This document shows, piece after piece, positions 31,804 through 50,326 of a stretch of DNA of 64,000 bases. The notes below the pieces were generated by a model. It saw only the letters and a program-made list of their open reading frames with translations. It made no database searches and was not told the DNA's origin. The stretch is taken from NCBI GenBank assembly GCA_002697535.1, contig NZWE01000008.1, positions 5,796 through 69,795 of the forward strand. Reading direction: 5' to 3'. A program made the position numbers and the translations under genes. Source of the DNA: Actinomycetota bacterium (GTDB taxonomy: Bacteria > Margulisbacteria > Marinamargulisbacteria > GCA-2716485 > GCA-002719695). The number at the start of each line of letters is the position of its first letter. The first letter of the stretch is position 1.

Positions 31804-32919
31804 ATGCTTAAAAAAGGGGTTTTAAAATTCATCCATTTACGAATATTAGATAAATATCTAATTCGGGAATTTTTTTACCCTTTTTTATTAGCTCTTTTTG
31901 GCTTTGCGATTATTGGTATTGTTGACATTTTATTTTATGTTGTTGAACTCTCTGTGTTATCGGGTGTTTCGCTTATAACTACGATTAAATTACTTCTTTA
32001 TAAACTTCCGGCTGTTATGGTTTTATTTTTTCCTATGGCTACCCTATTTGCTTGTATGCTTTTATTTGTTCGTATGGCAAAAGATAATGAATTAAGTGTT
32101 CTTAGAACATCAGGTATTCATGCGGCTCGTATTATTTTTCCTGTGATTATCATTGGTATTATCATTAGTTATTTTTCATATATGTTTAATGAAGCTATTG
32201 TACCGATGTCAAATCAAGCCGCTGATACTTTAATTAAGCGTGAGTTACGCCGATCTCCACCTCCTAATATTGCTGAAAATACGGTTTTTAATGATTCTGA
32301 TCGATTTTTTTATATAAAAACCATTCGTAATGATTCGATGGAAAATATTATGGTTATAGAAAAAACATTTCAAAACCCACGCTTAATTATTGCTAAGGAA
32401 GGATCATGGAAAGATTTTAAATGGACACTATTTGATGGAACCCTTCAAGAATTTGATGAAAATGGCCATTTAAAATATTCAAACAAATTTGACGAAATGA
32501 GAATTCATGTTCAACAAAATATTCGATCTTATTATTCACGTCAAAAAAAGGCCAAAGAAATGGATTCTAATGAATTAAAAGAAAAAATTGATCGGTTAGA
32601 TGAAAGTGGTTTAAGTTCAAACTATTATCAAATTGAATATCATCTTAAAAAAAGTTTGCCAACCACATGTTTAATCTTTGTATTACTGGGGATTGCCTAT
32701 TGTTTTAGTTTTGTACGTACAGGAAAAGACTGGTGGGGTGTTATAATTGCTATATGTGTTTCTGTTTTAACGGTTGGTTTATATTTTGTTTTGTTAGCTA
32801 TATCCCGAGCTTTTGCAAAAGGTGGGTTCATTTCCCCCATTGTTGGCGCGTGGTCTCCTAATCTTATTTATGGCACAATTGCAAGCTATCTAATTTATTA
32901 TCAATGCAAGTACAGGTAA
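31804..32919 (+). CDS. LPS export ABC permease, LptF/LptG (YjgP/YjgQ) family
   Basis: ILDKYLIREFFYPFLLALFGFAIIGIVD at the N-terminus, a central periplasmic beta-jellyroll region and C-terminal TM helices. Confidence 0.8.
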   Translation: MLKKGVLKFIHLRILDKYLIREFFYPFLLALFGFAIIGIVDILFYVVELSVLSGVSLITTIKLLLYKLPAVMVLFFPMATLFACMLLFVRMAKDNELSVLRTSGIHAARIIFPVIIIGIIISYFSYMFNEAIVPMSNQAADTLIKRELRRSPPPNIAENTVFNDSDRFFYIKTIRNDSMENIMVIEKTFQNPRLIIAKEGSWKDFKWTLFDGTLQEFDENGHLKYSNKFDEMRIHVQQNIRSYYSRQKKAKEMDSNELKEKIDRLDESGLSSNYYQIEYHLKKSLPTTCLIFVLLGIAYCFSFVRTGKDWWGVIIAICVSVLTVGLYFVLLAISRAFAKGGFISPIVGAWSPNLIYGTIASYLIYYQCKYR

Positions 32920-37761: not shown

Positions 37762-38447
37762 TGAAATACTTTATTATTGTTTTGTCTTTATTACTATTAA
37801 CAGGATGTGCTAGAACTATTTCGTCTGGTGGTGACGTTATTAATTTAGAATTTAAAATCTCCACACAAGGTCCTATCAATACTAGTAACACTATTTATCT
37901 TCTTGTTTTCTCATCAACTCAATTAATTCTTTCTGAAAAAGCAACCCTTGATGATTACTTTATCTTTCCTGGTAAATACTTTGACGATTCAAGATTAGCT
38001 ACTTTACCTGGTAAAGATATTAATTATTACTACACTTCTTATTTTAAATATTGGAAACAGTTTCTTTACCTGACTAATAATTCTATTGAACTTACTACAG
38101 CCTCTGCTAATAGTTTTGATGCTTCTATTGCCACTATTGAAGATCATCAATCTATTGAACCTTCTCAGGGCTTTGAAGGTATCCAGTCCATTCATGCAGA
38201 TACACTTACGATTACTGTTGATATTACCCAATTAGGTTACGAAGAATCTGATACCGTTTATTTTAGTATCTTAACATTTGAAAAAGATACTTCTTCAGAA
38301 GCTGGCATTATTAAAGATTTTTTAACGAATGATTCATCTCATGTGATTGATCTTACTAAAAATCAACTTAATTCTGGAAATAATTCTGAGAATACATCGC
38401 TTGATACTCACCACGACATTGTTCAATGGCAATACAGAGTTTATTAA
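37761..38447 (+). CDS. lipoprotein of unknown function (positional LptE candidate)
   Basis: Lipobox LLLTGC at residues 11-16. Its ATG overlaps the lptD-like stop (TAATG). Confidence 0.6.
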   Translation: MKYFIIVLSLLLLTGCARTISSGGDVINLEFKISTQGPINTSNTIYLLVFSSTQLILSEKATLDDYFIFPGKYFDDSRLATLPGKDINYYYTSYFKYWKQFLYLTNNSIELTTASANSFDASIATIEDHQSIEPSQGFEGIQSIHADTLTITVDITQLGYEESDTVYFSILTFEKDTSSEAGIIKDFLTNDSSHVIDLTKNQLNSGNNSENTSLDTHHDIVQWQYRVY

Positions 38448-39937
38448 TTTTAATATCAGCGAGTTTATGCTTTTTAGCATTTCCTTCGTTTGATAGTTAT
38501 TGGCTTCAATGTATTTCATTAGTCCCCTTATTATTTGTCTTTCATAAATCGTACTTAAACTGTTTTCAGCTTCCTTATTTCACACAACTTCGAAATCTTT
38601 CTTTACTTGGTTTTATTTTTGGCTTAGTTTATATGGGATTGACTAACCTCTGGGTTTTTGAACTTATTGAATTTTCTAACCTCCCTAAGATTATTAGCTT
38701 GTTTATTATCTATACCATTTATGAAGCACTCTTTTTTGGACTGATTGCCTGTTGTTATCGATTGTGTCACTGTAAAGCGTTCTTACTCCCCTTTATTTGG
38801 ATCGTATTTGAATGGCTTAAATCATATGGACCCTATGGCTCTCCTAATGGTGTTTTAGGCTATAGCCAAGCTAATAATATCCTTATCAATCATTTTGCTA
38901 GTTTAGGGGGTGTTTATGCTGTCTCTTTTATCTGTGTTTTTATTAATAGTTTACTCTTTCTAACAATCTTATCCATCACCCAAAAACATCACCGTCGTTC
39001 TTTTTTGTATTTATTTACTATTATTTTAATATTATTTTCATCACATTTTTATCACCTCCCCTCTGCATCATCACCTCAGTCTTTTAATGTTGCTAGTGTA
39101 CAAGCTAATCATCCTATGCCATATAAATTTAAACGTAAAAATAGAGCTGCTATTCGACAAGATTATATTCAGATCTCACAAGATGCTATTAAACAGCATA
39201 AACTTGATCTTATTATCTGGCCTGAAACAATTACGGCTAGTTTAAATTTAAATTTTAAATCGCTGATGAGCCCTATCCAAACTATGACACAGCATGATAC
39301 AGCTTTTATCTTTGGCTCACCTCGTAAAGAAAATGGTCATTATTATAATACAGCAGCCTTTATTACTTCTAAGAATAGAGTTACCTACGATAAAATTCAA
39401 TTGATGCCTTTTGGTGAATATTGGCCACTAAAGCGTGTATTTCAATTTTTTAAGCTAGATAATATTATTCCAGGAAGCGAATTTACCCATGGAAAAACGC
39501 CAACCTTATTTGATCTTAATGCTATTCAAATAGCACCGATTATTTGTTTAGAATCTACTAATTCATGTTTATCTCGTACTTATGCTAACCAAGGTGCTGA
39601 TATTCTTGTTTCATTGGTTAATAATGCCTGGTTTAAAGGCAGCTCTATAGCAGCTAGACAACTACAAATGTTACAGTTTCGTTCTATCGAAGTAGGCTTA
39701 CCTAGTATACAATCCGCTAATATGGGCTTTACCTGTTTTATTAATGCTTCTGGTAAAATCACAGGCATATTAGATAAATATCAACAAGATTATCTATTTC
39801 AAAGCATTGATTGTGTGAGCATTAATACTCCATTTCGAAATTGGGGTAATGGTGTTGTGTTGGTAGCCTTTATAATTACTTTGGGCTATTTATTACGTAG
39901 TTATTACTACTATCTAATGGATAGGGGTAGGTTATAG
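38426..39937 (+). CDS. lnt: apolipoprotein N-acyltransferase
   Basis: N-terminal polytopic domain plus a CN-hydrolase domain with DLIIWPET, LMPFGEYWP, ICLES and NNAWF. Confidence 0.85.
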   Translation: MAIQSLLILISASLCFLAFPSFDSYWLQCISLVPLLFVFHKSYLNCFQLPYFTQLRNLSLLGFIFGLVYMGLTNLWVFELIEFSNLPKIISLFIIYTIYEALFFGLIACCYRLCHCKAFLLPFIWIVFEWLKSYGPYGSPNGVLGYSQANNILINHFASLGGVYAVSFICVFINSLLFLTILSITQKHHRRSFLYLFTIILILFSSHFYHLPSASSPQSFNVASVQANHPMPYKFKRKNRAAIRQDYIQISQDAIKQHKLDLIIWPETITASLNLNFKSLMSPIQTMTQHDTAFIFGSPRKENGHYYNTAAFITSKNRVTYDKIQLMPFGEYWPLKRVFQFFKLDNIIPGSEFTHGKTPTLFDLNAIQIAPIICLESTNSCLSRTYANQGADILVSLVNNAWFKGSSIAARQLQMLQFRSIEVGLPSIQSANMGFTCFINASGKITGILDKYQQDYLFQSIDCVSINTPFRNWGNGVVLVAFIITLGYLLRSYYYYLMDRGRL

Positions 39938-39939
39938 AA

Positions 39940-39960
39940 CTGAAAACTAATTGTTTTCAG
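39940..39960. terminator. bidirectional hairpin terminator candidate between the convergent lnt and fliG-like genes
   Basis: CTGAAAAC-TAATT-GTTTTCAG forms a perfect 8-bp stem with a 5-nt loop, followed by TTT on the plus strand and TTCT on the minus strand. Confidence 0.5.
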
Positions 39961-39968
39961 TTTGATGA

Positions 39969-40595
39969 TTAAAAATCAAAGTTTTCAACTTCAGTTTCTT
40001 GCTCTTGATTTGTCTCTGCTTGCTTTTTTTCTTCTTCAATCTCTTCTGCTGTTTTTAATACAATCAAATCAAATAATCGTTTAAATATACGTTCAGCCAT
40101 CGGCGTAGCTTCTACTTTACATGTTTGATACGCTGCTATTTTTTCGTCTGCCATATGTTCTTGGATAGCGTTTCCCAATTCTTCTTCAACATATTTAAAG
40201 AAAAATGCAATCATCTGGTTTTCTTGAGAACTCAAATGTGATGCTATGGTTTCTAATGACCGATAATTTTCCGGAAAGAGCTTCTCTTCTGGGATCACTT
40301 CTTCTTCCTCAGGTTCTTCTTCTCTATCTTCCATTTCTTCTTCTTTTTCTTCTTCTTCTTCTGAAAATAAATCGTCTTCACCACTATCTGATATTTCAAA
40401 TTCTTTTTCGCTAACTCCTTCTAATACTAATGTTAAAAACTCTCCCATTTCTTCATCATTAATCGTTGGTACATCATCTAAAGTTGAGGTTAATATGGTA
40501 GCACTTTCCTCTGATAAATGTTTTAAAACATCCGTACTCTTTTCTTCAATTAAACTAATTAATAATTGAGATTTTTGCTTTCCTGTTAAGTTCAT
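39969..40595 (-). CDS. FliG-like protein, truncated (N-terminal domain plus an acidic insert; no C-terminal torque domain)
   Basis: LTGKQKSQLLISLIEEKSTDVLKHLSEE matches the FliG N-domain signature (LTGxEKAAILLxxLGEExAAxVxKxL). Followed by an E-rich tract (EEEEEKEEEMEDREEEPEEEE). Total 208 aa, compared with about 330 for FliG. Start overlaps the fliF stop. Confidence 0.6.
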   Translation of the reverse strand: MNLTGKQKSQLLISLIEEKSTDVLKHLSEESATILTSTLDDVPTINDEEMGEFLTLVLEGVSEKEFEISDSGEDDLFSEEEEEKEEEMEDREEEPEEEEVIPEEKLFPENYRSLETIASHLSSQENQMIAFFFKYVEEELGNAIQEHMADEKIAAYQTCKVEATPMAERIFKRLFDLIVLKTAEEIEEEKKQAETNQEQETEVENFDF

Positions 40596-42220
40596 GATGC
40601 AACCTCTTCTAGCACAAAATCTTCTTCTAATTCAGTTTGAGCTTCTTCAGTTTGCTCATTGCTATCGTCCTCTTTTTCCTTTAACCAATCTTCCATAATA
40701 GCCGCTAATTTTTCTGGAAATTCGACTGCTAATTCTCTTAATTTCTCTAATTTTGTATCATTATCAAGATCTTCGTCTTCTTCTAAATCACCATCATCCA
40801 GATTATCAAATTCATCTTCATTGATATTTTCAACAACTTTATTTTCTTCACGTCGTGCTTTTCGTATAAATCGTATTACAAATATAATGATGGCAATACC
40901 CACTATAATGCTTGCTGCTAACAAAAGATAATCTAATAATCCTTGTCTAGTATGCTTGGCTATTAATGCTTTTTTCTCGCTCTCTGTATAAATAGGAAAC
41001 TCAGCAATACTTAATTGTATGGAATCTCTACCTCTGATATACCCTACTGATCCAGCTACTGTTTGAAATACCTGCTGCTTAAAGGCTTTATCTACAAAAA
41101 TATCATCATTTAATCCATCAATTACAATACTTATGGTTTGTCTTTTTATATCAACTATATTTCCATTTTCAAGTGGTCCTAAATCTGATGTTACCTCAAC
41201 TTTAAACGATGCAATTGGCATAATTCCAAATAATTGTTTTTCTACTTTTTGTTTTAACGTATTCTCAAAATTCCACTTTATTTCAAACCATTCTTGTATA
41301 CGATCATAATTAGGGATTATAGGACTTCCCATTGCCTCTTCTCGACTAATGGCTGCTAAAATAGGGGCTCGGCTTTTTTCTTCTGCTACATATGTTCCGG
41401 CTCGTTTTGATGCTAATCTTTCAAAAAGACTATCCGATAATAGATTTCCCTCTGTATCAATAACGGATACATTTTCTACTTGCAAATTTTCAACTGCATT
41501 TGACACTAATTGAATAATACTAAAGACAATTTCATCCGTTATCTCACTTCCTTGAATAATTCGTATAATAATCGATGATGTCACAGGCGGTTGAGTTACT
41601 GTAAATAAACGCTGTTCTGGTAATACAATTTGTACTTTTGCTGATTCAATAATATCTAATTGTGTAATTGCTTTTTCTAATTCGCCTGACAAGGCTCTTA
41701 AAAACCGAATCCGTTTATCAAATTCTGTTACGCCTAAGGTTTGAGCATCATCTAATAATTCATACCCACTCTTTGCTTTTCCTGATGGAATTCCTTTAAT
41801 GGCCAACAAATTTCTTGCTAGTTCCGCTTCATCTTCTGCTACTAAAATTGTAAATTTTTGACCATTTTGTTCGGTTTTAAATTGTATTTCTGCTAAACTA
41901 ATTTCTTTTAAAATTTTGCTCGTATCGCCACCATCTAACTGACTAAATAATTTTACATACTTTATTTTTTTTCTACTTTTCTTACTTTTATCTACTTTAT
42001 TTTTTGATACCATTATATTTTTGTTACTATGCTTACTAACGGATTTATTTGACTCATTACCTCTTCCTAACATTGTTAGCAATATCACAATAATAATAAC
42101 GCCTGCTATTAATCCCCCAATAATGAATTGTCTATTTGACTGTTTTGGAGGCAATGGCTCTGGTTGGGAAACTGGTTCCTCTAATGTGGGTTCTTCTTGA
42201 ATTATTTCTTCTTCAGCCAT
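40592..42220 (-). CDS. fliF: flagellar MS-ring protein FliF
   Basis: N-terminal TM helix, YscJ/FliF-type periplasmic domains (YVKLFSQLDGGDTSKILKEIS ... ILVAEDEAELARNLLAIKGIP), a second TM helix and an acidic C-terminal FliG-binding tail. Confidence 0.9.
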   Translation of the reverse strand: MAEEEIIQEEPTLEEPVSQPEPLPPKQSNRQFIIGGLIAGVIIIVILLTMLGRGNESNKSVSKHSNKNIMVSKNKVDKSKKSRKKIKYVKLFSQLDGGDTSKILKEISLAEIQFKTEQNGQKFTILVAEDEAELARNLLAIKGIPSGKAKSGYELLDDAQTLGVTEFDKRIRFLRALSGELEKAITQLDIIESAKVQIVLPEQRLFTVTQPPVTSSIIIRIIQGSEITDEIVFSIIQLVSNAVENLQVENVSVIDTEGNLLSDSLFERLASKRAGTYVAEEKSRAPILAAISREEAMGSPIIPNYDRIQEWFEIKWNFENTLKQKVEKQLFGIMPIASFKVEVTSDLGPLENGNIVDIKRQTISIVIDGLNDDIFVDKAFKQQVFQTVAGSVGYIRGRDSIQLSIAEFPIYTESEKKALIAKHTRQGLLDYLLLAASIIVGIAIIIFVIRFIRKARREENKVVENINEDEFDNLDDGDLEEDEDLDNDTKLEKLRELAVEFPEKLAAIMEDWLKEKEDDSNEQTEEAQTELEEDFVLEEVAS

Positions 42221-42309: not shown

Positions 42310-42873
42310 TTAAATAGCTAACTGCGTTATTTCTTTAAATGTTTGCGTAGCAGATGATAAAACGGTTGTTGCAAATGATACGGCTAAATTTAACTTCATT
42401 GTCTCAACACTCACTTCATCTAACGAAACTTTTCCTTCAATATATTGCTCTGTTAAATCATTTACTCGATATTCCATTGTACTAATACTTTCTAGCACCT
42501 CTATTGATTTATCTAATAACATTTGAAATGGTGTTACTTCTACACGATTCGTACTCAGATAAACATTTTCATCATCTTGTCCTTGAACATTTTGACGTCT
42601 ATTTTGATTATTTTGAACTTCACGAAATATGTTTTCTATTTCTTCCGGTGCTAATGCCTGCGCTAACAGCTCTCTATTTTCTTCTTCTGATACAATTCTT
42701 GGTTTTTGATTAAAGTTATAATCAATTCCATCGACATCATTTGGATTAACCCCATTTAATGCTTCATCAAAAAAGTTTTGAAATGGTACCTTTGGCATCA
42801 TTTCTTTATTAACAGCATTTGCCTTTTGAGGTTTCATTTGCATCATATCCAAAGGGTCTAATTTCTTATTCAT
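42310..42873 (-). CDS. fliE: FliE-like basal-body protein with a long N-terminal extension
   Basis: The C-terminal 75 aa (…FQMLLDKSIEVL…VSVETMKLNLAVSFATTVLSSATQTFKEITQLAI) align to the FliE pattern. At 187 aa it is much longer than the usual ~100. Canonical position after flgC. Confidence 0.65.
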   Translation of the reverse strand: MNKKLDPLDMMQMKPQKANAVNKEMMPKVPFQNFFDEALNGVNPNDVDGIDYNFNQKPRIVSEEENRELLAQALAPEEIENIFREVQNNQNRRQNVQGQDDENVYLSTNRVEVTPFQMLLDKSIEVLESISTMEYRVNDLTEQYIEGKVSLDEVSVETMKLNLAVSFATTVLSSATQTFKEITQLAI

Positions 42874-43319
42874 TTTAATAATTCCATTGTAGACTGGTAC
42901 ATCGCTTTTGTCAGTTTAAATGCATTAATATTTGCTTCATACATAGCCTCTGTGTGCTTTAGTGTTACCATTTCATTTGGCATATTAACATTCGGCAAAT
43001 AAAAATATCCATCTTCATCGGACTGTGGCGCCGCTGGATCAAAGTATCGACTAAATGGCTCTGTACTTCGTTCAATATCAACTACCTTTACACCAATATC
43101 GGAGGCTTCTAATACTAAATATTTTTTTTGGTAGGGCAATCCTGTTTCTTCATCTTTTAAAGTCATTAAGTTGGCAACATTTTCTGCCGTCATTGTCATT
43201 TTCATCCGCTGAGAAACAATACCACTCATATTGATCTGGAATGCATCTTCTAATGTACTTAACTGTGCGGCTATTGGTGATAGTAATATTAAACTGATAA
43301 TGATTACTTTAATCAACAT
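42870..43319 (-). CDS. flgC: flagellar proximal rod protein FlgC (with a hydrophobic N-terminal extension)
   Basis: QINMSGIVSQRMKMTMTAENVANLMT (rod N-motif) and C-terminal VNMPNEMVTLKHTEAMYEANINAFK. ATG at 43319, 2 nt after the flgB TAG (the track start is a GTG at 43322). Confidence 0.85.
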   Translation of the reverse strand: MLIKVIIISLILLSPIAAQLSTLEDAFQINMSGIVSQRMKMTMTAENVANLMTLKDEETGLPYQKKYLVLEASDIGVKVVDIERSTEPFSRYFDPAAPQSDEDGYFYLPNVNMPNEMVTLKHTEAMYEANINAFKLTKAMYQSTMELLK

Positions 43320-43321
43320 CA

Positions 43322-43708
43322 CTAGCGTTTTCCCATTGTAGCTATCTGCCGATAGGTATCAAACCGTTTTTTATATAACGTCAAGTAACTTGCTTGTAAA
43401 TTTCTGTTTTTTGCCATGCTCGCTGACATATGCTCTAATAATACTTTTTTTCTTAACTCACTATTATTTGGAATAATTTGATTTAATTCTTCCTGGTCTT
43501 CTGGATACAGAACCGGCTCAAAGCCAGGAGTGGTAATATTAGCAATATTATACGAAAAAAGCGCATGCTTTTTTGTTGCTTTATAAATTGCTTTTTCTAA
43601 TTTTTGATCAGCTGGATACAATGCCAATTTACCTTCATTTTGCTGTGCCCATATCGATCCACTTAAATATATAAGTATACTTATGGCTATTAATTGATAT
43701 TTATTCAT
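43322..43708 (-). CDS. flgB: flagellar proximal rod protein FlgB (with a hydrophobic N-terminal extension)
   Basis: Rod motif SYNIANITTPGFEP. Position upstream of flgC. ATG overlaps the fliA stop by 8 nt. Confidence 0.8.
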   Translation of the reverse strand: MNKYQLIAISILIYLSGSIWAQQNEGKLALYPADQKLEKAIYKATKKHALFSYNIANITTPGFEPVLYPEDQEELNQIIPNNSELRKKVLLEHMSASMAKNRNLQASYLTLYKKRFDTYRQIATMGKR

Positions 43709-44423
43709 TCTGTTTCAATCCTTCTAATCGATGTTTTAATCTATCTAAAACATTCATATGAATACGACATATTCGACTTTTAGATAACTTTAAATGCTTA
43801 GCAATTTCTACTTGCTTAAGTCCATGTATATAAAATAATTCTATAACATCTTTGTCGGGATGTTCTAGATCATAAATCTCTTTCCATAAAAAATCATAAT
43901 TTTCATCCACAACTTCTATCTCAGGGTCTTTTGTTCCTTTACTTTCAGATATATTTTGCTTCATATCGCCTGATATATAATGAACAAACGTCGCTGATTC
44001 AACTGCCTCATTAACCTTTTCTTTAGGCTTACTATTAGACTCATTTATAGTATCTTCGATAAACTCTGATAATGTTTCTTGTAATTTTTTTCTTCTGTCA
44101 CGGTACTCTTGAGGAATTCGTGAATTCCATTCATTACGAATTGAATCCAATATTTCACCTCTAATACGATAATAAGCATAGGTTTGAAATTTAGTTTTCA
44201 AGTCTTTCTTAAACCCTTTTTTAGCTTTTAATAATCCTTCAACTCCCCAACTAATTAAATCTCCATAATCAATACAACTAGGAACTTTCCCTGCATGTAA
44301 AATTTTTGATGCAATGTTTTTTATTAATGGCATATGCTCATTAATAAACTCTTCAGAATGCCCTCTATCTTTTCGAGCATCATTATATTGTAGTTTAGTT
44401 ATATCAACGTTTTTCTTTGACAT
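43701..44423 (-). CDS. fliA: RNA polymerase sigma factor, FliA/sigma-28 family
   Basis: Region 2 FQTYAYYRIRGEILDSIR and region 4 HTH LKQVEIAKHLKLSKSRICRIHMNVLDRLK. Embedded in the flagellar operon. Confidence 0.8.
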   Translation of the reverse strand: MSKKNVDITKLQYNDARKDRGHSEEFINEHMPLIKNIASKILHAGKVPSCIDYGDLISWGVEGLLKAKKGFKKDLKTKFQTYAYYRIRGEILDSIRNEWNSRIPQEYRDRRKKLQETLSEFIEDTINESNSKPKEKVNEAVESATFVHYISGDMKQNISESKGTKDPEIEVVDENYDFLWKEIYDLEHPDKDVIELFYIHGLKQVEIAKHLKLSKSRICRIHMNVLDRLKHRLEGLKQNE

Positions 44424-44426
44424 TTT

Positions 44427-44759
44427 TTATTCCCTAAAATATTCATCTAAGTTTAATAAATCTTGATCTGCTAAATATTTAGATAGTTGCCTTGCATAAA
44501 TTACATTCATTAATTCATTTGATTGTTTTGTATCATAAATGGCATCCTCTTCAATTTCAATAACACTTGTTGATTTAAATAACGGTTGTACAAATATTTG
44601 TTGAATAAATAATGCTTGCATTTTTTTCATAGCATCTTCCTCACTGCCAATTTCATAATTTGGATTTAATAACTGATAATAACTCATATCAGGCATCTGT
44701 CCTACTACACTAGCTGTGAATATTAACATCAAACTTATTATATAAAAAATTGTCTTCAT
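44427..44759 (-). CDS. rod-binding protein (FlgJ N-terminal-domain-like)
   Basis: 110 aa located directly after flgI. AMKKMQALFIQQIFVQPLFK ... MNVIYARQLSKYLA resembles the Rod_binding domain. There is no muramidase domain. Confidence 0.45.
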   Translation of the reverse strand: MKTIFYIISLMLIFTASVVGQMPDMSYYQLLNPNYEIGSEEDAMKKMQALFIQQIFVQPLFKSTSVIEIEEDAIYDTKQSNELMNVIYARQLSKYLADQDLLNLDEYFRE

Positions 44760-45826
44760 AATATTTCTAAATCAGCTACAAGAGCTCCTGACTCTTTTAA
44801 TGCTTGGATAATATTAATTAATTCTTTAGGTGTTACACCTATTTGGTTTAATGAATTCACTAAATTTGATAAGGTATCAGCTGCCTCTAAATAAACTAAC
44901 GGTTTTTTTGATTCATTTATTGTAATAGGATCTTCTTGTGCCCCAAATAACCCTCCGGCATCATTATTAATTTTTATTGAAACGCCTCCATGAGTAATTG
45001 CAACAGGAAATAATTTAACATTTTCTCCAATAATGATCGTTCCTGTTTTTGAATTCACAACAATTCGTGATGATACATCAGGTGTAATTTCTATATTCTC
45101 AATTTCAGATATAGCTGTTATTAAATCGGAAGACTTTAAATCTTCTAATGGAATTTTAATGGTATTGCCATCTATTGCTTTGGCGCCCTTATAGCCTTTC
45201 TCTTGTAATGCTTTCATCGCTTTTGCTACTGTAAAGAAATTTGGTCTATCTAAAACCATTGTAATATTATGTTGATCTGTAAACGTTACTGGCACCTCAG
45301 CTTCTACTATAGCTCCATTTGGTATTGAGCCTACCGTTGCTTGATTTCTATAAAGCTGTGTTGTCGCAGATACTTCACTTGCTCCATCAATGACTATATT
45401 TCCTTGCGCTACAGCATATGTTTTCATGTCAGGTCCCATCATTGGGGTCATAATTAATGTTCCCCCAATCAAAGAACTTGCATCTCCTAATGCTGATACC
45501 GTTACTGATATACGTTGACCCTTTTTTAAAAATGATGGTAAATTGGCTGTTACTAAAACAGAGGCTGCATTTCTAGCATTTAAATTTACGCCACTTATTG
45601 AAACTCCCATTTTTGATAATAAGTTTCTTAAAGCATTATTTGTTAAACCGGCAGCTCTAGAATCACCACTTCCTCTTAGCCCCACAACAATCCCATACCC
45701 TGCCAATTGATTGTCTCTTGATTCAATTAATTTCCCAATATCTTTTAATCGTACAGTATTAGACTGAGAATAAGATAGACTCCCTAACAAACTTAACATT
45801 ATTAAAATAGATGTTAAAATTTTCAT
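44756..45826 (-). CDS. flgI: flagellar P-ring protein FlgI
   Basis: Signal peptide followed by RLKDIGKLIESRDNQLAGYGIVVGLRGSGDS, with FlgI-like sequence conserved along the full length. Confidence 0.95.
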   Translation of the reverse strand: MKILTSILIMLSLLGSLSYSQSNTVRLKDIGKLIESRDNQLAGYGIVVGLRGSGDSRAAGLTNNALRNLLSKMGVSISGVNLNARNAASVLVTANLPSFLKKGQRISVTVSALGDASSLIGGTLIMTPMMGPDMKTYAVAQGNIVIDGASEVSATTQLYRNQATVGSIPNGAIVEAEVPVTFTDQHNITMVLDRPNFFTVAKAMKALQEKGYKGAKAIDGNTIKIPLEDLKSSDLITAISEIENIEITPDVSSRIVVNSKTGTIIIGENVKLFPVAITHGGVSIKINNDAGGLFGAQEDPITINESKKPLVYLEAADTLSNLVNSLNQIGVTPKELINIIQALKESGALVADLEIL

Positions 45827-45827
45827 A

Positions 45828-46436
45828 CTAAAACAACCAATTAAATACTTTCGTCATAATACCAGGAGATTGCTTTGAAGCTACTACCCCACTTCCATGT
45901 ACTGAAATTTCAGCTTTAGCAACTTGATATGAATAGACTGAATTCTTTGGAGAAATATCTTGAGGCCGAATAACACCTGCTACTCGAATTGTCTCCAACT
46001 CATCATTGACTTTTACTTTATGAATTCCTTCAACATATAAATTTCCATTATCTAATATTTCAGTGACTACTGATGAAACGACCGCCTTAACCTGACTTCT
46101 ACGCGAGGTTTGTCCCGATCCTTCATACTTATCATCACCATTTAACCCATATTGTCTTTTTTGATTTAACGTTTCATTTCCTAATAAATTTCCTACTTGC
46201 TCCCAATTATTTTGAATTGAAGCGCCTAACCGCGATTCTCTTTCTGTACTGGTTGATGCTTGCTGTGCCGCTGATGTTGATTCTGACACATAAATCGTAA
46301 TGATATCACCAACTCGGATTAGCCGTCTGTTAACACCATAAAACGGTGTTTTCGCATTATCAAATAACGAATCTGCGACAACCTCCATAGGCCATAGCAA
46401 ACTAATTAGAACTAATAAGAATATGTTTTTTATCAA
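45828..46436 (-). CDS. flgH: flagellar L-ring protein FlgH
   Basis: SLFDN ... RVGDIITIYVSESTSA ... LYVEGIHKVKVNDELETIRVAGVIRPQDI, typical FlgH. The signal peptide has no lipobox Cys. Confidence 0.9.
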   Translation of the reverse strand: MIKNIFLLVLISLLWPMEVVADSLFDNAKTPFYGVNRRLIRVGDIITIYVSESTSAAQQASTSTERESRLGASIQNNWEQVGNLLGNETLNQKRQYGLNGDDKYEGSGQTSRRSQVKAVVSSVVTEILDNGNLYVEGIHKVKVNDELETIRVAGVIRPQDISPKNSVYSYQVAKAEISVHGSGVVASKQSPGIMTKVFNWLF

Positions 46437-47121
46437 TTACTTTTCCTCTTAATATTTTTTTTGTTTCTGTCTTCATTCGAATCATATCACCTATCATCCC
46501 TGAATCTAATGCTGTAACATCCGATTTAATCTCAAAGCCTGATGATTTGATAACTAATTTTACATGTTCTCCTTTTTGCACATCAGGAACAAGTTCAATC
46601 CATCGATCTGAAAATGCAATTCCTTTTATCATCGATCGTTTTGTTTGCTTTCCTATAATAATATCTTTATTAAAAATATAATCTTCGGATCGTGATGTTA
46701 ACTTAATTCTTTTTTGAGTAATATCATTATTAGAAATAATATCATTTGTTTTTATTTTTCTATTAGATACATAAACATCTCCATAGACGCTGGTTTCTAA
46801 AGCACATTTTTCTGTTTTAATAATTGTATTTTCTTCTGATAAAAATGCCGTATCTAATATAATCTTTCCCATTAAGGTTTGTGGTTTTGCTAAATCTACA
46901 AAGATATAAAAGACATCTTTAGAAATATCATTAAAAATTTCTGAGTTTTTTATCTCGACATTCACGTCTGGATTTTTTACATCTCCCATTTGTCCTAGTA
47001 TTTGATTTTCAATTTCAGTCTCTAATATTGTACTAGAAAAATTAGCAACACTATATTGCTTTGCAGATAGATTAACTGAAAAAAATACTGCTAATAAAAT
47101 TACCCAAAACACTCTCAACAT
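46402..47121 (-). CDS. flgA: flagellar P-ring assembly chaperone FlgA
   Basis: Signal peptide and a C-terminal SAF/FlgA pattern GEHVKLVIKSSGFEIKSDVTALDSGMIGDMIRMK. Position between flgG and flgH. Confidence 0.75.
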   Translation of the reverse strand: MLRVFWVILLAVFFSVNLSAKQYSVANFSSTILETEIENQILGQMGDVKNPDVNVEIKNSEIFNDISKDVFYIFVDLAKPQTLMGKIILDTAFLSEENTIIKTEKCALETSVYGDVYVSNRKIKTNDIISNNDITQKRIKLTSRSEDYIFNKDIIIGKQTKRSMIKGIAFSDRWIELVPDVQKGEHVKLVIKSSGFEIKSDVTALDSGMIGDMIRMKTETKKILRGKVIDKKHILISSN

Positions 47122-47124
47122 TAT

Positions 47125-47928
47125 TTATTTTCCTATATCACTCGCTGCCTTTAACATTGCATCTGCTGATTTAATGGTCGAGTTTACTAACTCAAATGTT
47201 CGCTGACATAACAACATATTCATCATTTCTTCAATGATATTAACATTTGAAAACTCTAATGCTCTTTGCTTTACCATCCCAACACCATTTTCACCAGGAA
47301 TTGTTAACTCTGGATCGCCTGATGCAGCTGTTGCTCTAAATAAATTTTGACCAACGTCTTTTAATCCTCCTGCATTTGGAAAATTCACTAAATAAACCTG
47401 ACCTATTTCTGTTGGCTGGACAGTATTTGCTGTTTGAGCAAACACCTCACCTGCTTCATTAATAATAATTTCAGTCGTATTAGCTGGTATTGTAATAGCT
47501 GGATCAAGTGGATGCCCATTTGGATTTAATACATTACCTTCTGCATCTGCATGCAGGTTTCCAGCCCTACTAAACCCATAGGTTCCATCTGGCATTAAAA
47601 ATTGTAAAAATCCTTTTCCTTCTATAGCAACATCCAGTTGTTGATTTGTCATTTCAATTGATCCGGTTGTAAAGTCTTTTGTTACATCAACAATACGTAT
47701 TCCTTGACCATACTCTAAGTATTTCTTACGTTTTCGTCCTGCACCCGGTGATACCTCATCAAACTCTGAATAGGCTCTTTCTAATACTAATGGAAATAAA
47801 CTCTCCATTTCCATACGCTTCTTTTTATATCCAACCGTTTGCGCATTCGCAATATTGTTTGCAATAACCTGCATTTTTCTTTCATAAGAAAAATATGCTG
47901 ATTTTGCCATAAATAACTGTGATAACAT
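47125..47928 (-). CDS. flgG: flagellar distal rod protein FlgG
   Basis: N-terminus MQVIANNIANAQTVGYKK and C-terminus LEFSNVNIIEEMMNMLLCQRTFELVNSTIKSAD. The N-terminus is canonical, with no hydrophobic extension. Confidence 0.9.
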   Translation of the reverse strand: MLSQLFMAKSAYFSYERKMQVIANNIANAQTVGYKKKRMEMESLFPLVLERAYSEFDEVSPGAGRKRKKYLEYGQGIRIVDVTKDFTTGSIEMTNQQLDVAIEGKGFLQFLMPDGTYGFSRAGNLHADAEGNVLNPNGHPLDPAITIPANTTEIIINEAGEVFAQTANTVQPTEIGQVYLVNFPNAGGLKDVGQNLFRATAASGDPELTIPGENGVGMVKQRALEFSNVNIIEEMMNMLLCQRTFELVNSTIKSADAMLKAASDIGK

Positions 47929-47951
47929 GTTGCTTTCCTCCTTTTATGTTT

Positions 47952-48773
47952 TTATGGACTCGATAATGTTGCCGCTGTATTTAACGCTCTATTCATTAAA
48001 TGAGCTGTTTTAACACTGGCATCATATGCATTTTTTGCCATTAATATATCCCCAGTAATCCCCTTTAAGACATTATTTTGCTCTAAAGCTCCCTGAACAA
48101 CCGCATAATGCTCTGGGCCTTCTTCTACGGGAACATCTTTTGTCAAAATAAAATAAGATCCATTTAATGATTCAAAGGACTGCATTGCCGCAAATGTTTT
48201 GAATACTACAATTTTCATACTTGAAACAGGCTGTCCATCAACATAAATAAGCCCTGATCGTGATACTAATATATCTTCACCTTCCGGCAAAATTATTTCA
48301 CCTTCTTCTCCTAATACTGGATAATTACCTGATAATGTTACCAATCTTCTCTTTGAATCTAATAAAAAACGGCCATCTCTTGTAAATGCAATCGTACCTG
48401 GTAACTGCACCACAAAAAAACCTCTACTATTAGCATCAATATAAAAATCTAGCTCTTTATTGGTTTCAATCATCGGACCAGCTCTCCATCTAAAAAAAGG
48501 CAAATAATCTAAATCATAGCCGTCTTCTGTCTTTTTTCTAGAATTATAAACACCTGTCTCAATAAATCCTGGCGTTCCAACATTTATCGTATAAAACATA
48601 AAGTTTGTATAATGCACCTGAAACATTCTCATAGCTTCCAATGTTGTTGACACTCCTTCATCTTGCACCTCACCAAAATTGGTATATCCATATAATGATG
48701 ATGTAACACTTAAAATCATTAGTAATATACCCATCGTGACATTTCTATAAACATTAAGTTGTTTTTTTATCAT
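47952..48773 (-). CDS. flgF: flagellar rod protein, FlgF-like (with a hydrophobic N-terminal extension)
   Basis: Rod motif TINVGTPGF and C-terminus VVQGALEQNNV ... AKNAYDASVKTAHLMN. Upstream of flgG. Confidence 0.7.
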   Translation of the reverse strand: MIKKQLNVYRNVTMGILLMILSVTSSLYGYTNFGEVQDEGVSTTLEAMRMFQVHYTNFMFYTINVGTPGFIETGVYNSRKKTEDGYDLDYLPFFRWRAGPMIETNKELDFYIDANSRGFFVVQLPGTIAFTRDGRFLLDSKRRLVTLSGNYPVLGEEGEIILPEGEDILVSRSGLIYVDGQPVSSMKIVVFKTFAAMQSFESLNGSYFILTKDVPVEEGPEHYAVVQGALEQNNVLKGITGDILMAKNAYDASVKTAHLMNRALNTAATLSSP

Positions 48774-49135
48774 TTTCTCTTCTTTCTTTTTAATTTTTTC
48801 TTTTTTGCCAGTCTATCTAATCGATACACAAACGATAATACTTCTGCCACCATATTATATAAATTAGGCGGTATTTCAGAATTTATAGCTAACTTTGATA
48901 ACAACTCCACTAAAGAAGAATCTTCATAAAATGGAACCTTATTATCTTCGGCAACCTTAAGTATCTTTTCCGCAATTTGACCTTTTCCAAACCCTGTAAT
49001 TTTTGGTGCCTTACTATTTTTCGAATCATACTTTAAAGCAATAGCTTTTAAATTATGCTTATTTTTAACATCAAGTTGATGTATATTTCGTTTTAATTTT
49101 ATATTTTTTGGCTTATCACTTTTTTTTGCATTCAT
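48770..49135 (-). CDS. stand-alone FlhB C-terminal-domain protein (YlqH / EscU-YscU-HrcU family fragment)
   Basis: AIALKYDSKNSKAPKITGFGKGQIAEKILKVAEDNKVPFYEDSSLVELL ... VAEVLSFVYRL aligns to the part of FlhB_C after the NPTH cleavage site. No TM domain. Confidence 0.75.
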   Translation of the reverse strand: MNAKKSDKPKNIKLKRNIHQLDVKNKHNLKAIALKYDSKNSKAPKITGFGKGQIAEKILKVAEDNKVPFYEDSSLVELLSKLAINSEIPPNLYNMVAEVLSFVYRLDRLAKKKKLKRKKRK

Positions 49136-49138
49136 AGT

Positions 49139-50326
49139 TTATACTTCCGTACTAATTCGTTTCATATTATTTAAATTAAATGTTGGTAATAATAACTTTT
49201 CGATATTGATGATCTTTTTTAATGATTGCACTTGAGTTACTTCATAATTTAATTCTTCCATAGATTTTTTTAGTTCAGGAACTTCATCTAAAACAAATTT
49301 TTGAGTCAATTCATTACTGCTATAAATCTTATATGCCATTTTTTTATCATTAATTTCAATAATGATCGTTAAGTCCCCTAAATCTGATGTTTCACACTTA
49401 ATCACAATTGTTGTGTTATTAGGATTTACTTTTCTCTTATTCTTAGGATCCTTACTTACCATAACCTCAATATCTTTCAATGCTTTTGCCATAGGATTTG
49501 GAATCATCCAATAATGAAAAAACTCCTCCGAAATTTGTTGATTTGAAGGACTTTTAGATAAAATTAATTGTGTCAATAAAACATCATGAAAGGCTGACGA
49601 ATCTTTTTCAACACTTTTAATTATTTTTTTTAAATTATCGGCTATTAAGTTATTAGATGATGATAACTTTTTATTAATCCCTTTTAAAAAATCTTGTAAA
49701 TATCTTAAATCTTGCACTAAGTCAGATTGCTTGTTGATCAACCCCTTAATATCTAAATTATCAGCATGCTTTTTCATGGTCTTTGTATCTTCTAAAAAGT
49801 CATCTAAAAACCCCGCAACCCCAGCGATCAATGACGGATCTAAAAATGCGCTAAAACCAGGCAATCCATTTTTTAATCCCTGCAACCCCTGAGACAATCT
49901 TGATAAACTTCCTGATAACTGAACATTATGCGATAAAAACTTTGAAATCAAATCCACAGCCTTAGCATTACCATCAAGTCCTTTTGAATAAGCAACGACA
50001 CTTGCCTCCAACTTGTTCCCCTTCTTACTCCCCTTAACCGCCTGCTCTATTAAATCAAAGGCTTCTGGAGATGCTTCGACTCCATACAATAACATAGTTG
50101 TTAAAATCTGCTTATTTTCAGGTGTAACCGCTTTTTGCAAATTTAATAAGGCCTGACTAATATCTTGTGAATTTAATATACGAACATACTCTGGTGTTTT
50201 TTGTAACGGCTGATCAGCACTCTTAATATTTGATTGATCACTATTTATATCCTGAATACTTTTAGGTAACGATTTTGAGTCGGTTGTCTGCTGAGGCTTA
50301 TTAACATCTCCACGTATATTTTGCAT
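49139..50326 (-). CDS. FliK-like hook-length-control-type protein (tentative)
   Basis: The C-terminal block IKCETSDLGDLTIIIEINDKKMAYKIYSSNELTQKFV...LKKSMEELNYEV resembles the Flg_hook domain (LxPxxLGxVxVxL...). Pairing with a FlhB_C-only gene is common in other genomes. Confidence 0.45.
   Translation of the reverse strand: MQNIRGDVNKPQQTTDSKSLPKSIQDINSDQSNIKSADQPLQKTPEYVRILNSQDISQALLNLQKAVTPENKQILTTMLLYGVEASPEAFDLIEQAVKGSKKGNKLEASVVAYSKGLDGNAKAVDLISKFLSHNVQLSGSLSRLSQGLQGLKNGLPGFSAFLDPSLIAGVAGFLDDFLEDTKTMKKHADNLDIKGLINKQSDLVQDLRYLQDFLKGINKKLSSSNNLIADNLKKIIKSVEKDSSAFHDVLLTQLILSKSPSNQQISEEFFHYWMIPNPMAKALKDIEVMVSKDPKNKRKVNPNNTTIVIKCETSDLGDLTIIIEINDKKMAYKIYSSNELTQKFVLDEVPELKKSMEELNYEVTQVQSLKKIINIEKLLLPTFNLNNMKRISTEV

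What the first reader, a model, noticed from the sequence alone, without database searches (positions are those of the whole stretch)
39969..40595. FliG-like protein lacks the torque-generating C-terminal domain and carries a poly-Glu insert
The gene after fliF starts with a clear FliG N-domain signature (LTGKQKSQLLISLIEEKSTDVLKHL). This is the part that docks onto the FliF C-terminus. The protein is only 208 aa, whereas FliG is typically about 330 aa. After residue ~70 comes an acidic tract (SGEDDLFSEEEEEKEEEMEDREEEPEEEE). A short helical region follows that may correspond to part of the FliG middle domain (SQENQMIAFFFKYVEEELGNAIQEHM). I see nothing resembling the C-terminal charged-ridge domain that contacts MotA. 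Such a protein could cap FliF without supporting rotation.
Basis: partly seen in the sequence, partly recalled or inferred. Interest (0 to 1): 0.6.

Follow-up and report, generated by a model that had tools for sequence, protein, structure and literature searches.

The report
FliG rotor protein without torque domain
The gene after fliF encodes a conserved, shortened version of the flagellar rotor protein FliG: it keeps the part that docks onto the membrane ring and the middle domain but has lost the part that the stator pushes on, so this flagellum-like machine may not turn by the usual route.

Summary
ORF 39969-40595 (-) encodes 208 aa and overlaps the fliF stop codon (ATGA). It is a real, selected FliG homologue. 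Residues 1-70 are FliG_N, 71-107 a disordered acidic linker, 108-181 FliG_M, and 182-208 an acidic helix. No FliG_C was detected by Pfam, NCBIfam, hhalign, a local HMM or Foldseek.

It is not a one-off truncation. At least 157 clusters (50% identity) of mostly 160-230 aa proteins share this N+M architecture. In every long locus read, the gene follows fliF in the same basal-body operon. In three lineages it sits in the canonical slot, fliF-fliG'-fliH-fliI-fliJ. Two relatives fuse FliF to the M block and drop both the FliF tail and the N block.

The organism is probably a Marinamargulisbacterium. Published gene tables for that class report no FliM, chemotaxis, hook-junction or cap genes.

Best reading: an adaptor tethered to the MS ring that cannot itself receive torque. 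The main rival is a two-piece FliG. RAST annotation of the relative Ruthmannia eludens lists a FliG beside MotA/MotB, and I could not search this genome for it.

Verdict: new variant of a known kind, interest about 0.7.

The parts
39969..40595 (-). fliG' gene: 208-aa FliG homologue with N and M domains only (FliG-NM). Last gene of the flagellar basal-body operon.
   Evidence: ORF; Pfam FliG_N; hhalign against canonical FliG, 98.7%; AF2 model with mean pLDDT 86; Foldseek top hits are all FliG; dN/dS 0.19 against L004.
40386..40595 (-). N block, residues 1-70: FliG_N-like three-helix unit. Inferred docking site for the FliF C-terminal tail.
   Evidence: Pfam FliG_N covers residues 2-65. Helices at 5-24, 29-37 and 47-70 with pLDDT >93. 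Superposes on 5tdy_B/D (FliFc:FliGn) over 62-67 columns, rmsd 1.6-2.0 A, 26-27% identity. dN/dS 0.18. This block is absent from the natural FliF fusions.
40275..40385 (-). Acidic linker, residues 71-107 (poly-Glu/Asp), predicted disordered. It replaces the distal FliG_N helices and the N-M helix of canonical FliG.
   Evidence: pLDDT 45-53. Length and sequence vary among relatives while the acidic character is kept. dN/dS 1.15. Relatives of the L019 type have a shorter, non-acidic linker.
40053..40274 (-). M block, residues 108-181: FliG middle (ARM_M) domain. Q-E-N-Q stands in place of the EHPQ motif.
   Evidence: hhalign aligns it to canonical FliG residues ~115-187. The Aquifex FliG alignment falls on the EHPQ region. 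Pfam FliG_M exceeds its cutoff in relatives P0060, P0062 and P0108. Foldseek gives rmsd 2.2-2.5 A to FliG_M in FliG-FliM complexes 4qrm, 4fq0 and 3soh. pLDDT 94-97. dN/dS 0.05.
39969..40052 (-). C-terminal acidic helix, residues 182-208, ending in FDF, plus the stop codon. It lies where canonical FliG has the helix leading into the C domain.
   Evidence: Helix 183-204, pLDDT 76-94. The hhalign match ends at canonical residue 187. The tail varies across the family and is absent in some members.
40592..42220 (-). fliF (MS-ring protein, 542 aa), translationally coupled to fliG'.
   Evidence: Pfam YscJ_FliF 155 bits; TIGR00206 127 bits; ATGA overlap.
40676..40753 (-). FliF C-terminal amphipathic helix motif, residues 490-515 (KLEKLRELAVEFPEKLAAIMEDWLKE). 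Inferred FliG'-binding tail.
   Evidence: The motif ...PE.(i/l)A.(i/l)(m/l).(e/k)WL is conserved in FliF of 10 of the 13 loci read that have a separate fliG' (not recognisable in L006; degenerate in L011/L014). It is missing in the FliF::M-block fusions. A direct PDB sequence search with the tail was uninformative.
39940..39960 (.). Perfect 8-bp inverted repeat (CTGAAAAC-aatta-GTTTTCAG) in the 31-nt gap between the convergent fliG' and lnt genes. Possible bidirectional terminator.
   Evidence: Read directly from the sequence. The consensus terminator scan did not flag it because it is AT-rich.
42310..50326 (-). Upstream part of the same operon: fliK-like 49139-50326, FlhB-C-domain-only 48770-49135, flgF-like 47952-48773, flgG 47125-47928, flgA 46402-47121, flgH 45828-46436, flgI 44756-45826, orf110 44427-44759, fliA-type sigma 43701-44423, flgB 43322-43708, flgC 42870-43322, fliE 42310-42873.
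   Evidence: Pfam and NCBIfam hits. The same gene order occurs in L001-L005, L008, L009, L011, L016, L017, L019 and L022-L025.

Best explanation
The gene encodes the lineage's FliG orthologue, reduced to two modules. Shown: it has a FliG_N module and a FliG_M (ARM_M) module, joined by a disordered acidic linker, and it lacks FliG_C, the domain that carries the charged torque helix contacted by MotA. It is conserved, under purifying selection, and co-translated with FliF. Inferred: the N module co-folds with the conserved C-terminal helix of FliF, one copy per FliF subunit, as canonical FliG_N does. This hangs a ring of M modules under the MS ring on flexible tethers. The M module is the working end. 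It most likely serves as a docking platform for cytoplasmic parts of the export machinery (FliN, and FliH/FliI where present) or for another ARM-type partner. The protein itself cannot receive torque from a stator. The floppy N-M link also looks poorly suited to passing torque to the MS ring. Taken together, the operon would build a flagellum-derived basal body that does not rotate through this protein. Published gene tables suggest the apparatus also has no switch and possibly no filament.
For: Architecture: Pfam FliG_N; hhalign colinear with canonical FliG residues 6-187 only, probability 98.7%; AF2 mean pLDDT 86 with a disordered 71-105 segment; Foldseek places the N block on 5tdy and the M block on FliG_M of FliG-FliM complexes; no FliG_C by Pfam, NCBIfam or a local HMM. 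Not an accident: 157 clusters at 50% identity, mostly 160-230 aa; dN/dS 0.19 overall and 0.05 in the M block. Orthology by position: the gene follows fliF in every long locus read; in L019, L022-L025 the order is fliF-fliG'(166-184 aa)-fliH-fliI-fliJ, with fliH abutting or overlapping fliG' or starting at most 10 nt after it. Role of the N block: fusions P0141 and P0166 join FliF TM2, through a low-complexity linker, directly to the M block, and lack both the FliF tail helix and the N block. The FliF tail motif is kept in 10 of the 13 loci read with separate genes. Context: Marinamargulisbacteria genomes are reported without FliM, CheW/R/B/C/D, MCPs, FlgK/L, FliD and FlgM/N, but with FlhA/B, FliOPQR, FliN, FliF, P/L rings and FlgE. 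In the same tables 26 Saganbacteria genomes have no FliG or FliM KO hit at all (PMC6349859 Supplementary Data 2 and 4). The EHPQR FliM-binding motif is degenerate here (Q-E-N-Q, no conserved Arg).
Against: Absence of a second FliG, MotA/B, FliM or flagellin in this organism was not tested, because only 64 kb of the genome is in hand. RAST annotation of Ruthmannia eludens (Marinamargulisbacteria) lists FliG-MotA-MotB as neighbours (pegs 420-422), FliM/FliN (1251-1252), and FliF (514) elsewhere beside a hypothetical protein. Two Marinamargulisbacteria SAGs have a K02410 hit flagged 'check_length'. Relatives of the L019 type with stronger FliG similarity apparently escaped that KO, if they are Saganbacteria as inferred, so those flagged hits may be a different, C-domain-bearing protein. 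KO-based absences in incomplete SAGs and MAGs are weak evidence. The flagellin KO is blank for every genome in that table, so it says nothing. FliF binding and the partner of the M block are inferences. The assignment to Marinamargulisbacteria is itself inferred (GC 31%, Nqr, KO fingerprint, one truncated 'Candidatus ...' cluster mate).
Confidence: 0.5

Rival explanations
1. Two-piece FliG. The rotor protein is divided between two genes. FliG' supplies the FliF anchor and ARM_M. A second protein, encoded next to motA/motB, supplies ARM_C and the torque helix. It stacks on the M block of FliG' non-covalently, as ARM_M and ARM_C of neighbouring subunits do in canonical C rings. The motor still rotates.
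For: In R. eludens, RAST calls FliG (peg.420) adjacent to MotA (421) and MotB (422), while FliF (514) lies elsewhere next to a hypothetical protein. K02410 is flagged 'check_length' in the Marinamargulisbacteria SAGs AA1A and AG3B. The M block is the most constrained part of FliG' (dN/dS 0.05). Intermolecular ARM_M-ARM_C stacking is established for FliG rings (my own knowledge of the domain-swap polymerisation model; not checked here).
Against: No FliG_C-bearing ORF lies within 10 kb of any of the 16 loci scanned or in the 64-kb window. In L019, L022 and L024, fliH abuts or overlaps fliG' or starts at most 10 nt downstream, so this is not an in-place gene fission. 26 Saganbacteria genomes have no K02410 hit of any length. 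A 35-100 residue disordered tether between the FliF anchor and the M block looks ill-suited to transmitting torque. The R. eludens protein's sequence and domain content were not available to me.
Confidence: 0.3
2. Accessory paralogue. A normal full-length FliG exists elsewhere in the genome. FliG' competes with it for FliF tails or for FliM/FliN, acting as an assembly factor, spacer or brake.
For: The same R. eludens and 'check_length' hints apply. Full-length FliG paralogues away from fliF do exist in other bacteria, for example P0149 beside a STAS/SpoIIE module.
Against: FliG' occupies the canonical fliG slot after fliF, with translational coupling, in every lineage seen. This is the position of the primary orthologue, not of an add-on. 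The FliF::M-block fusions imply a 1:1, permanent partnership that leaves no free FliF tail for another FliG.
Confidence: 0.12
3. Decaying gene or assembly artefact. A recently truncated fliG in a lineage that is losing its flagellum.
For: The lineage has a small genome and a reduced flagellar gene set.
Against: The length and two-block architecture are conserved across 157 clusters down to about 20% identity. There is purifying selection. The identical gene occurs on independent assemblies from ENA, JGI, NCBI and Logan. The AF2 model is confident.
Confidence: 0.02

Closest known systems
Canonical FliG (Pfam FliG_N + FliG_M + FliG_C; TIGR00207; e.g. Salmonella 8umd, Aquifex 3hjl, T. maritima)
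   Same: It is homologous and colinear over the N and M domains. The gene directly follows fliF. FliF keeps a C-terminal helix motif with a Trp at the position of the FliG-binding tail.
   Different: The whole C-terminal half is absent (ARM_C plus the six-helix domain with the torque helix). The distal part of FliG_N and the N-M helix are replaced by a disordered acidic linker. EHPQR is degenerate (QENQ, no conserved Arg). The protein scores 23.6 bits against the 226.7-bit TIGR00207 cutoff.
Laboratory FliF-FliG fusion and deletion-fusion mutants of Salmonella (Francis et al. 1992; Thomas et al. 2001; recalled from memory, not checked here)
   Same: The natural fusions P0141 and P0166 join FliF directly to the FliG middle domain and drop the FliF tail and FliG_N. 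This mirrors the deletion-fusion and supports a 1:1 FliF:FliG' relation.
   Different: The laboratory fusions keep FliG_C and still rotate. The natural ones end after the M domain.
Filament-less flagellar basal bodies of Buchnera aphidicola (Maezawa et al. 2006; Toft and Fares 2008; recalled from memory)
   Same: This is a possible functional analogue. A retained hook-basal body and export apparatus exist without filament, chemotaxis or stator genes, and are thought to act in protein export.
   Different: As far as I recall, Buchnera keeps a full-length fliG. Here the reduction is within FliG itself, and the organisms are mostly free-living and aquatic.
Non-flagellar type III secretion systems (injectisomes; Abby and Rocha 2012, PMC3459982)
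   Same: The injectisome is a flagellum-derived machine that has given up torque generation and keeps a FliF-like ring (SctJ), a FliN-like sorting platform and the export gate.
   Different: Injectisomes have no FliG homologue at all, have secretins instead of P/L rings, and have needles instead of rod and hook. This operon keeps FlgH/FlgI, rod proteins and a FliG remnant.
Full-length FliG paralogues (e.g. P0149 here; spirochaete FliG1/FliG2, recalled from memory)
   Same: More than one FliG-type gene can exist per genome.
   Different: Those paralogues have all three domains and usually lie away from fliF. FliG' is truncated and lies in the primary slot.

Membership tests
FliG (flagellar rotor/switch protein) | FliG_N domain (PF14842) | tested here: met
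   26.0 bits against a cutoff of 25, covering residues 2-65 of the protein and positions 1-65 of the 104-position model. Foldseek to 5tdy gives rmsd 1.6-2.0 A, probability 1.00. Only the proximal two thirds of the domain are present.
FliG (flagellar rotor/switch protein) | FliG_M domain (PF14841, ARM_M fold) | tested here: met
   The window protein itself gets no Pfam hit. hhalign aligns residues 108-184 to canonical FliG ~115-187. Relatives pass the Pfam cutoff. Foldseek gives rmsd 2.2-2.5 A to FliG_M. The fold also resembles FliG_C/MgtE_N repeats (1qc7, 2.8 A), so the assignment to M rests on colinearity.
FliG (flagellar rotor/switch protein) | EHPQR motif of FliG_M (FliM contact) | tested here: not met
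   The window protein has Q-E-N-Q. The family consensus is Q-K-P-Q with no conserved Arg at the R position. Relatives of the L019 type keep E-R-P-Q.
FliG (flagellar rotor/switch protein) | FliG_C domain (PF01706) with the charged torque helix that contacts MotA | tested here: not met
   No hit in Pfam or NCBIfam. The hhalign match ends at canonical residue 187. A local FliG_C HMM finds nothing in the window or the 16 loci scanned. Only 27 residues follow the M block.
FliG (flagellar rotor/switch protein) | Equivalog-level full-length score (TIGR00207, at least 226.7 bits) | tested here: not met
   23.6 bits. Relatives P0161 and P0156 score 58 and 55 bits, covering model positions 8/9-188 only.
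FliG (flagellar rotor/switch protein) | Gene immediately downstream of fliF in a flagellar operon | tested here: met
   ATGA overlap with fliF. The same position is seen in all related loci. In L019 and L022-L025, fliH-fliI-fliJ follow.
FliG (flagellar rotor/switch protein) | Binds the FliF C-terminal tail; forms the top of the C ring; transmits torque | not testable with these tools
   There is indirect evidence only: the conserved FliF tail motif, and fusions in which the tail and the N block are lost together. A chimeric or multimer structure prediction was not possible with the tools.
   No FliH hit. In related loci a separate FliH gene follows fliG'.
Two-piece (split) FliG | A second gene in the same genome encoding ARM_C plus the torque domain | not testable with these tools
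   The genome beyond the 64-kb window could not be searched. The only hints are the RAST annotation of R. eludens and the 'check_length' K02410 hits.

The most novel reading that the evidence does not exclude
Marinamargulisbacteria and related uncultured lineages (the L019 type, possibly Saganbacteria) carry a flagellum-derived, envelope-spanning apparatus that no longer rotates. FliG has been cut down to an MS-ring adaptor. FliM, chemotaxis, hook-junction and cap genes are gone. In the marine clade the proximal-rod proteins FlgB, FlgC and FlgF have acquired Sec signal peptides, which implies a re-routed assembly pathway. This would be an independent second example, besides the injectisome, of a flagellum converted into a non-motility machine, caught at an intermediate stage that still has P/L rings and a FliG remnant.
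Probability: 0.3. Interest if true: 0.85.

Novelty: new variant of a known kind. Interest (0 to 1): 0.7.

Why it matters
FliG_C is the part of the rotor on which the stator acts, and every studied flagellar motor has it. [quoted passage not shown] Two consequences are possible. Either these bacteria build a flagellar basal body for something other than swimming, or the rotor can be assembled from separate polypeptides. The first would bear on how the injectisome-type transition from motility to secretion can begin. The second would be a natural test of the ARM_M-ARM_C domain-swap model of C-ring assembly. There is also a practical point. [quoted passage not shown] For the marine clade that inference is not supported by the gene content.

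Tried and rejected
1. FliH identity was rejected.
2. Pseudogene or assembly artefact was rejected on conservation, dN/dS and independent assemblies.
3. I looked for a second fliG in several ways.
- Pfam annotation of the ORFs of at least 100 aa in the window, apart from two small ORFs nested antisense inside nqrB and the aminotransferase gene, found none. The MotA_ExbB-family gene at 26778-27395 belongs to an ExbB-ExbD-TonB cluster, not a stator.
- A local FliG_C HMM over the window and 16 related loci found none.
- P0149, the canonical FliG nearest to the family profile, turned out to be an unrelated stand-alone paralogue.
- Walking along the 142-kb parent contig failed, because the last complete window protein is not on record.
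4. The second homologous-protein search (whole family alignment) was swamped by Bacilli FliGs. The third (M block only) returned nothing. Neither gave taxon names.
5. The listing of cluster members gave only inconsistent MAG labels (Actinobacteria, Rickettsiales, 'bacterium') and one truncated 'Candidatus ...' name.
6. The first AF2 run with 12 close sequences was poor (pLDDT 57). It was superseded by the 129-sequence run.
8. A PDB sequence search with the FliF tail was uninformative.
9. One literature search was wasted because 'flig' matched 'flight'. Other searches found no prior description of a C-domain-less FliG or of Sec-signal rod proteins.
Full report
**Observation**

The ORF 39969-40595 on the minus strand encodes 208 aa. 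Its ATG overlaps the stop codon of the preceding gene in the sequence ATGA. That preceding gene is fliF (Pfam YscJ_FliF 155 bits, TIGR00206 127 bits). Pfam finds FliG_N over residues 2-65 at 26.0 bits (cutoff 25) and finds neither FliG_M nor FliG_C. TIGR00207 (fliG equivalog) gives 23.6 bits against a cutoff of 226.7.

**Surroundings**

The gene is the last member of a minus-strand operon:
- fliK-like
- FlhB-C-domain-only
- flgF-like
- flgG
- flgA
- flgH
- flgI
- orf110
- fliA-type sigma factor
- flgB
- flgC
- fliE
- fliF
- fliG'

The operon is followed by a convergent lnt gene. An 8-bp perfect hairpin lies in the 31-nt gap between the two. The ORFs of at least 100 aa in the rest of the window are housekeeping genes or have no Pfam hit: Nqr, LepA, LptF/G, an ExbB-ExbD-TonB cluster and others. 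The window holds no other flagellar gene and no stator.

**What the protein is**

Twenty close homologues of 178-226 aa were found, all from marine metagenomes or MAGs. They show two conserved blocks, residues 1-65 and 108-181, separated by an acidic stretch of variable length and followed by an acidic tail.
- A profile of these sequences searched against PDB sequences hits only FliG (E 1.2e-5). The second block falls on the EHPQ start of the Aquifex FliG middle domain.
- An exhaustive HMM search of 1.84 billion cluster representatives found 157 clusters with E at most 1e-3, most of them 160-230 aa.
- Distant members pass the Pfam FliG_M cutoff.
- hhalign of 129 family members against 21 canonical FliGs gives 98.7% probability and E 3.8e-16. 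The alignment is colinear from canonical residue 6 to 187. That is the N and M domains, with nothing for residues 188-337.
- With the deep alignment, AlphaFold2 gives mean pLDDT 86. There are three helices in 5-70, a disordered segment at 71-105 (pLDDT about 45-55), five helices in 114-178, and a terminal helix at 183-204.
- The top 21 Foldseek PDB hits are FliG chains, apart from a FliF-YlxF integrative model and an MgtE cytoplasmic domain. The N block superposes on T. maritima FliG_N co-folded with the FliF tail (5tdy, rmsd 1.6-2.0 A, 26-27% identity, probability 1.00). The second block superposes on FliG_M in FliG-FliM complexes (4qrm, 4fq0, 3soh; 2.2-2.5 A).
- The second block also resembles FliG_C (1qc7, 2.8 A), as expected for homologous ARM repeats. 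Colinearity therefore decides the assignment to M.
- The FliM-contact motif EHPQR is degenerate here. The window protein has Q-E-N-Q, the family consensus is Q-K-P-Q, and no Arg is conserved at the R position.

**A selected gene in the canonical fliG slot**

Nei-Gojobori dN/dS against the 65%-identical orthologue in L004 is as follows:

| Region | dN/dS |
|---|---|
| Whole gene | 0.19 |
| N block | 0.18 |
| Acidic linker | 1.15 |
| M block | 0.05 |

The gene order of the operon is the same in every long locus recovered: L001-L005, L008, L009, L011, L016 and L017. Genes downstream of fliG' are never flagellar in those loci.

In three further lineages the operon continues fliF-fliG'-fliH-fliI-fliJ: L019, L022/L023 and L024/L025, with GC 37-41%. 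There fliG' is 166-184 aa and carries clear FliG_N and FliG_M hits. TIGR00207 covers model positions 9-188 of 338 for P0156. fliH abuts or overlaps fliG' or starts at most 10 nt downstream, so the C domain has not simply been split off as the next ORF. A FliG_C HMM built from canonical sequences finds nothing in the window or in the 16 loci scanned.

**What the N block does**

Two relatives, P0141 (732 aa) and P0166 (729 aa), are natural FliF fusions. After the second FliF transmembrane helix comes a low-complexity linker and then the M block. Both the FliF C-terminal helix and the FliG' N block are missing.

In 10 of the 13 loci read with separate genes, FliF ends with a conserved amphipathic helix...PE.(i/l)A.(i/l)(m/l).(e/k)WL. 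The motif is not recognisable in L006 and is degenerate in L011/L014. It lies at the position of the FliG-binding tail of canonical FliF. That identification is my own knowledge of the FliF-FliG literature. A direct PDB sequence search with the tail was uninformative.

The co-loss of tail and N block in covalent fusions is what one expects if the only job of the N block is to hold the M block on FliF. This step is inferred, not shown.

**Organism and gene complement**

- The window is 31% GC and carries Nqr, LptF/G, Lnt and an SLH-domain protein.
- NCBI labels for near-identical MAGs disagree: 'Actinobacteria bacterium' CL503, 'bacterium' CL647 and 'Rickettsiales bacterium' CMP21. One 90%-cluster mate of NqrB is from a 'Candidatus ...' genome whose name is truncated.
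- Matheus Carnevali et al. 2019 (PMC6349859) describe Marinamargulisbacteria with Nqr. One of their SAGs is 1.5 Mb at 31.04% GC.
- Their KO tables list, for the three Marinamargulisbacteria genomes: FlhA/B, FliOPQR, FliN, FliF, FlgC, FlgF, FlgG, FlgH, FlgI, FlgA and FlgE present. FliE, FlgB, FliH, FliJ, FliM, FlgK, FlgL, FliD, FlgM and FlgN are absent. FliG is flagged 'check_length' in two genomes. There is no CheW, CheR, CheB, CheC, CheD or MCP.
- That fingerprint matches the window, where FliE and FlgB are too divergent for the curated cutoffs.
- The 26 Saganbacteria genomes in the same tables have FliH, FliJ, FliE and FlgB but no FliG or FliM hit at all. This matches the L019-type loci.

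Both lineage assignments are inferences. [quoted passage not shown] For the marine clade the gene content does not support that.

**The unresolved point**

The RAST annotation table for Ca. Ruthmannia eludens, a Marinamargulisbacterium living in Trichoplax (PMC6784892), lists:
- FliG (peg.420), MotA (421) and MotB (422) as neighbours
- FliM/FliN (1251-1252)
- FlhA, FliI and FlgE
- FliF (514), flanked by trp genes and one hypothetical protein (515)
- no flagellin, FlgK or FliD

So at least one member of the class may carry a second, better-conserved FliG beside a stator.

If the L019-type loci are indeed Saganbacteria, their short FliGs are more FliG-like than the window protein yet apparently escaped K02410. 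The 'check_length' hits in the marine SAGs may therefore also be that second protein. I could not obtain its sequence or search this genome.

**Mechanism**

- Shown: the protein is a FliG orthologue with the FliF-docking and middle domains, a disordered linker and no torque domain.
- Inferred: one copy docks on each FliF tail and presents its M domain under the MS ring.
- Most likely (about 0.5): the protein is a non-torque adaptor that recruits FliN and the export-ATPase complex, or another partner, in an apparatus without switch, chemotaxis or (probably) filament.
- Main rival (about 0.3): a two-piece FliG, in which a separately encoded ARM_C plus torque domain stacks on the M block.
- Against that rival: the long floppy tethers, the FliF::M fusions and the absence of any K02410 hit in Saganbacteria. 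For it: the R. eludens annotation.
- An accessory-paralogue role (about 0.12) fits poorly with the canonical gene position and the 1:1 fusions.
- A decaying gene is excluded.

**Comparison with known systems, and novelty**

The protein meets the FliG criteria for the N domain, the M fold and gene position. It fails the criteria for EHPQR, FliG_C and the equivalog score. It is therefore a FliG-family variant, not a FliG in the functional sense.

The nearest precedents are:
- the laboratory FliF-FliG deletion-fusions of Salmonella (same topology, but with the C domain)
- the filament-less basal bodies of Buchnera (a possible functional analogue, with full-length FliG)
- injectisomes (torque abandoned, FliG lost entirely)

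The first two are recalled from memory. I found no paper describing a C-domain-less FliG family. The proteins are annotated as hypothetical. I rate this a new variant of a known kind, with interest about 0.7.

Noticed in passing
window 43322-43708 (flgB), 42870-43322 (flgC), 47952-48773 (flgF-like), 44427-44759 (orf110), all minus strand; also L004, L005, L008, L009, L011, L016, L017, L024: The proximal-rod homologues FlgB, FlgC and FlgF-like, and orf110, begin with classical Sec-type signal peptides, e.g. MNKYQLIAISILIYLSGSIWAQ|Q and MMLIKVIIISLILLSPIAAQ|L. NCBIfam models start 23-40 residues into the proteins. FlgG and FliE have no such peptide. Canonical rod proteins are exported by the flagellar T3SS without a Sec signal. 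L019/L022-type relatives have normal N-termini. No literature on this was found.
   Followed up: partly
L016 10001-12199 (P0141, 732 aa); P0166 (729 aa): These are natural FliF::FliG-M-domain fusion proteins. They lack both the FliF C-terminal helix and the FliG N block, and sit in an otherwise identical operon.
   Followed up: yes
window 48770-49135 (-): A 121-aa protein consisting only of the FlhB/SctU C-terminal domain (TIGR00789 flhB_rel, 89 bits) sits between the fliK-like gene and flgF. The arrangement is conserved in all related loci.
   Followed up: partly
window 31804-39937 (+): lptF/G 31804-32919, TPR protein 32904-35273, orf850 35209-37761, orf228 37761-38447, lnt 38426-39937: This block lies convergent to the flagellar operon. 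In whole or in part (at least lnt) it is syntenic with the operon in relatives whose FliG' is only about 20-30% identical (L005, L008, L009, L017, P0077). orf850 and orf228 have no Pfam match.
   Followed up: partly
whole window; NCBI proteins MAQ63767-MAQ63821: Near-identical MAGs carrying this locus are labelled 'Actinobacteria bacterium', 'Rickettsiales bacterium' and 'bacterium' in NCBI. GC content, Nqr and the flagellar KO fingerprint point instead to Marinamargulisbacteria.
   Followed up: partly
L022 4237-4599; L024 324-692: An aspartate 1-decarboxylase (panD) gene is inserted between flgA and flgH, inside the flagellar operon, in two separate lineages.
   Followed up: no
window 57124-60690 (+), 5822-8146 (+), 28330-30288 (+): Three large ORFs (1188, 774 and 652 aa) have no Pfam match. 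The 652-aa ORF directly follows the ExbB-ExbD-TonB genes.
   Followed up: no
window 30292-30780 (+): There is an SLH-domain protein in an organism that also has LPS transport (LptF/G), Lnt and flagellar P/L rings. This fits an outer membrane tethered by SLH domains, as in Cyanobacteria-related diderms.
   Followed up: no
window 39940-39960: A perfect 8-bp inverted repeat with a 5-nt loop lies between the convergent fliG' and lnt genes. It is AT-rich, and the consensus terminator scan missed it.
   Followed up: no
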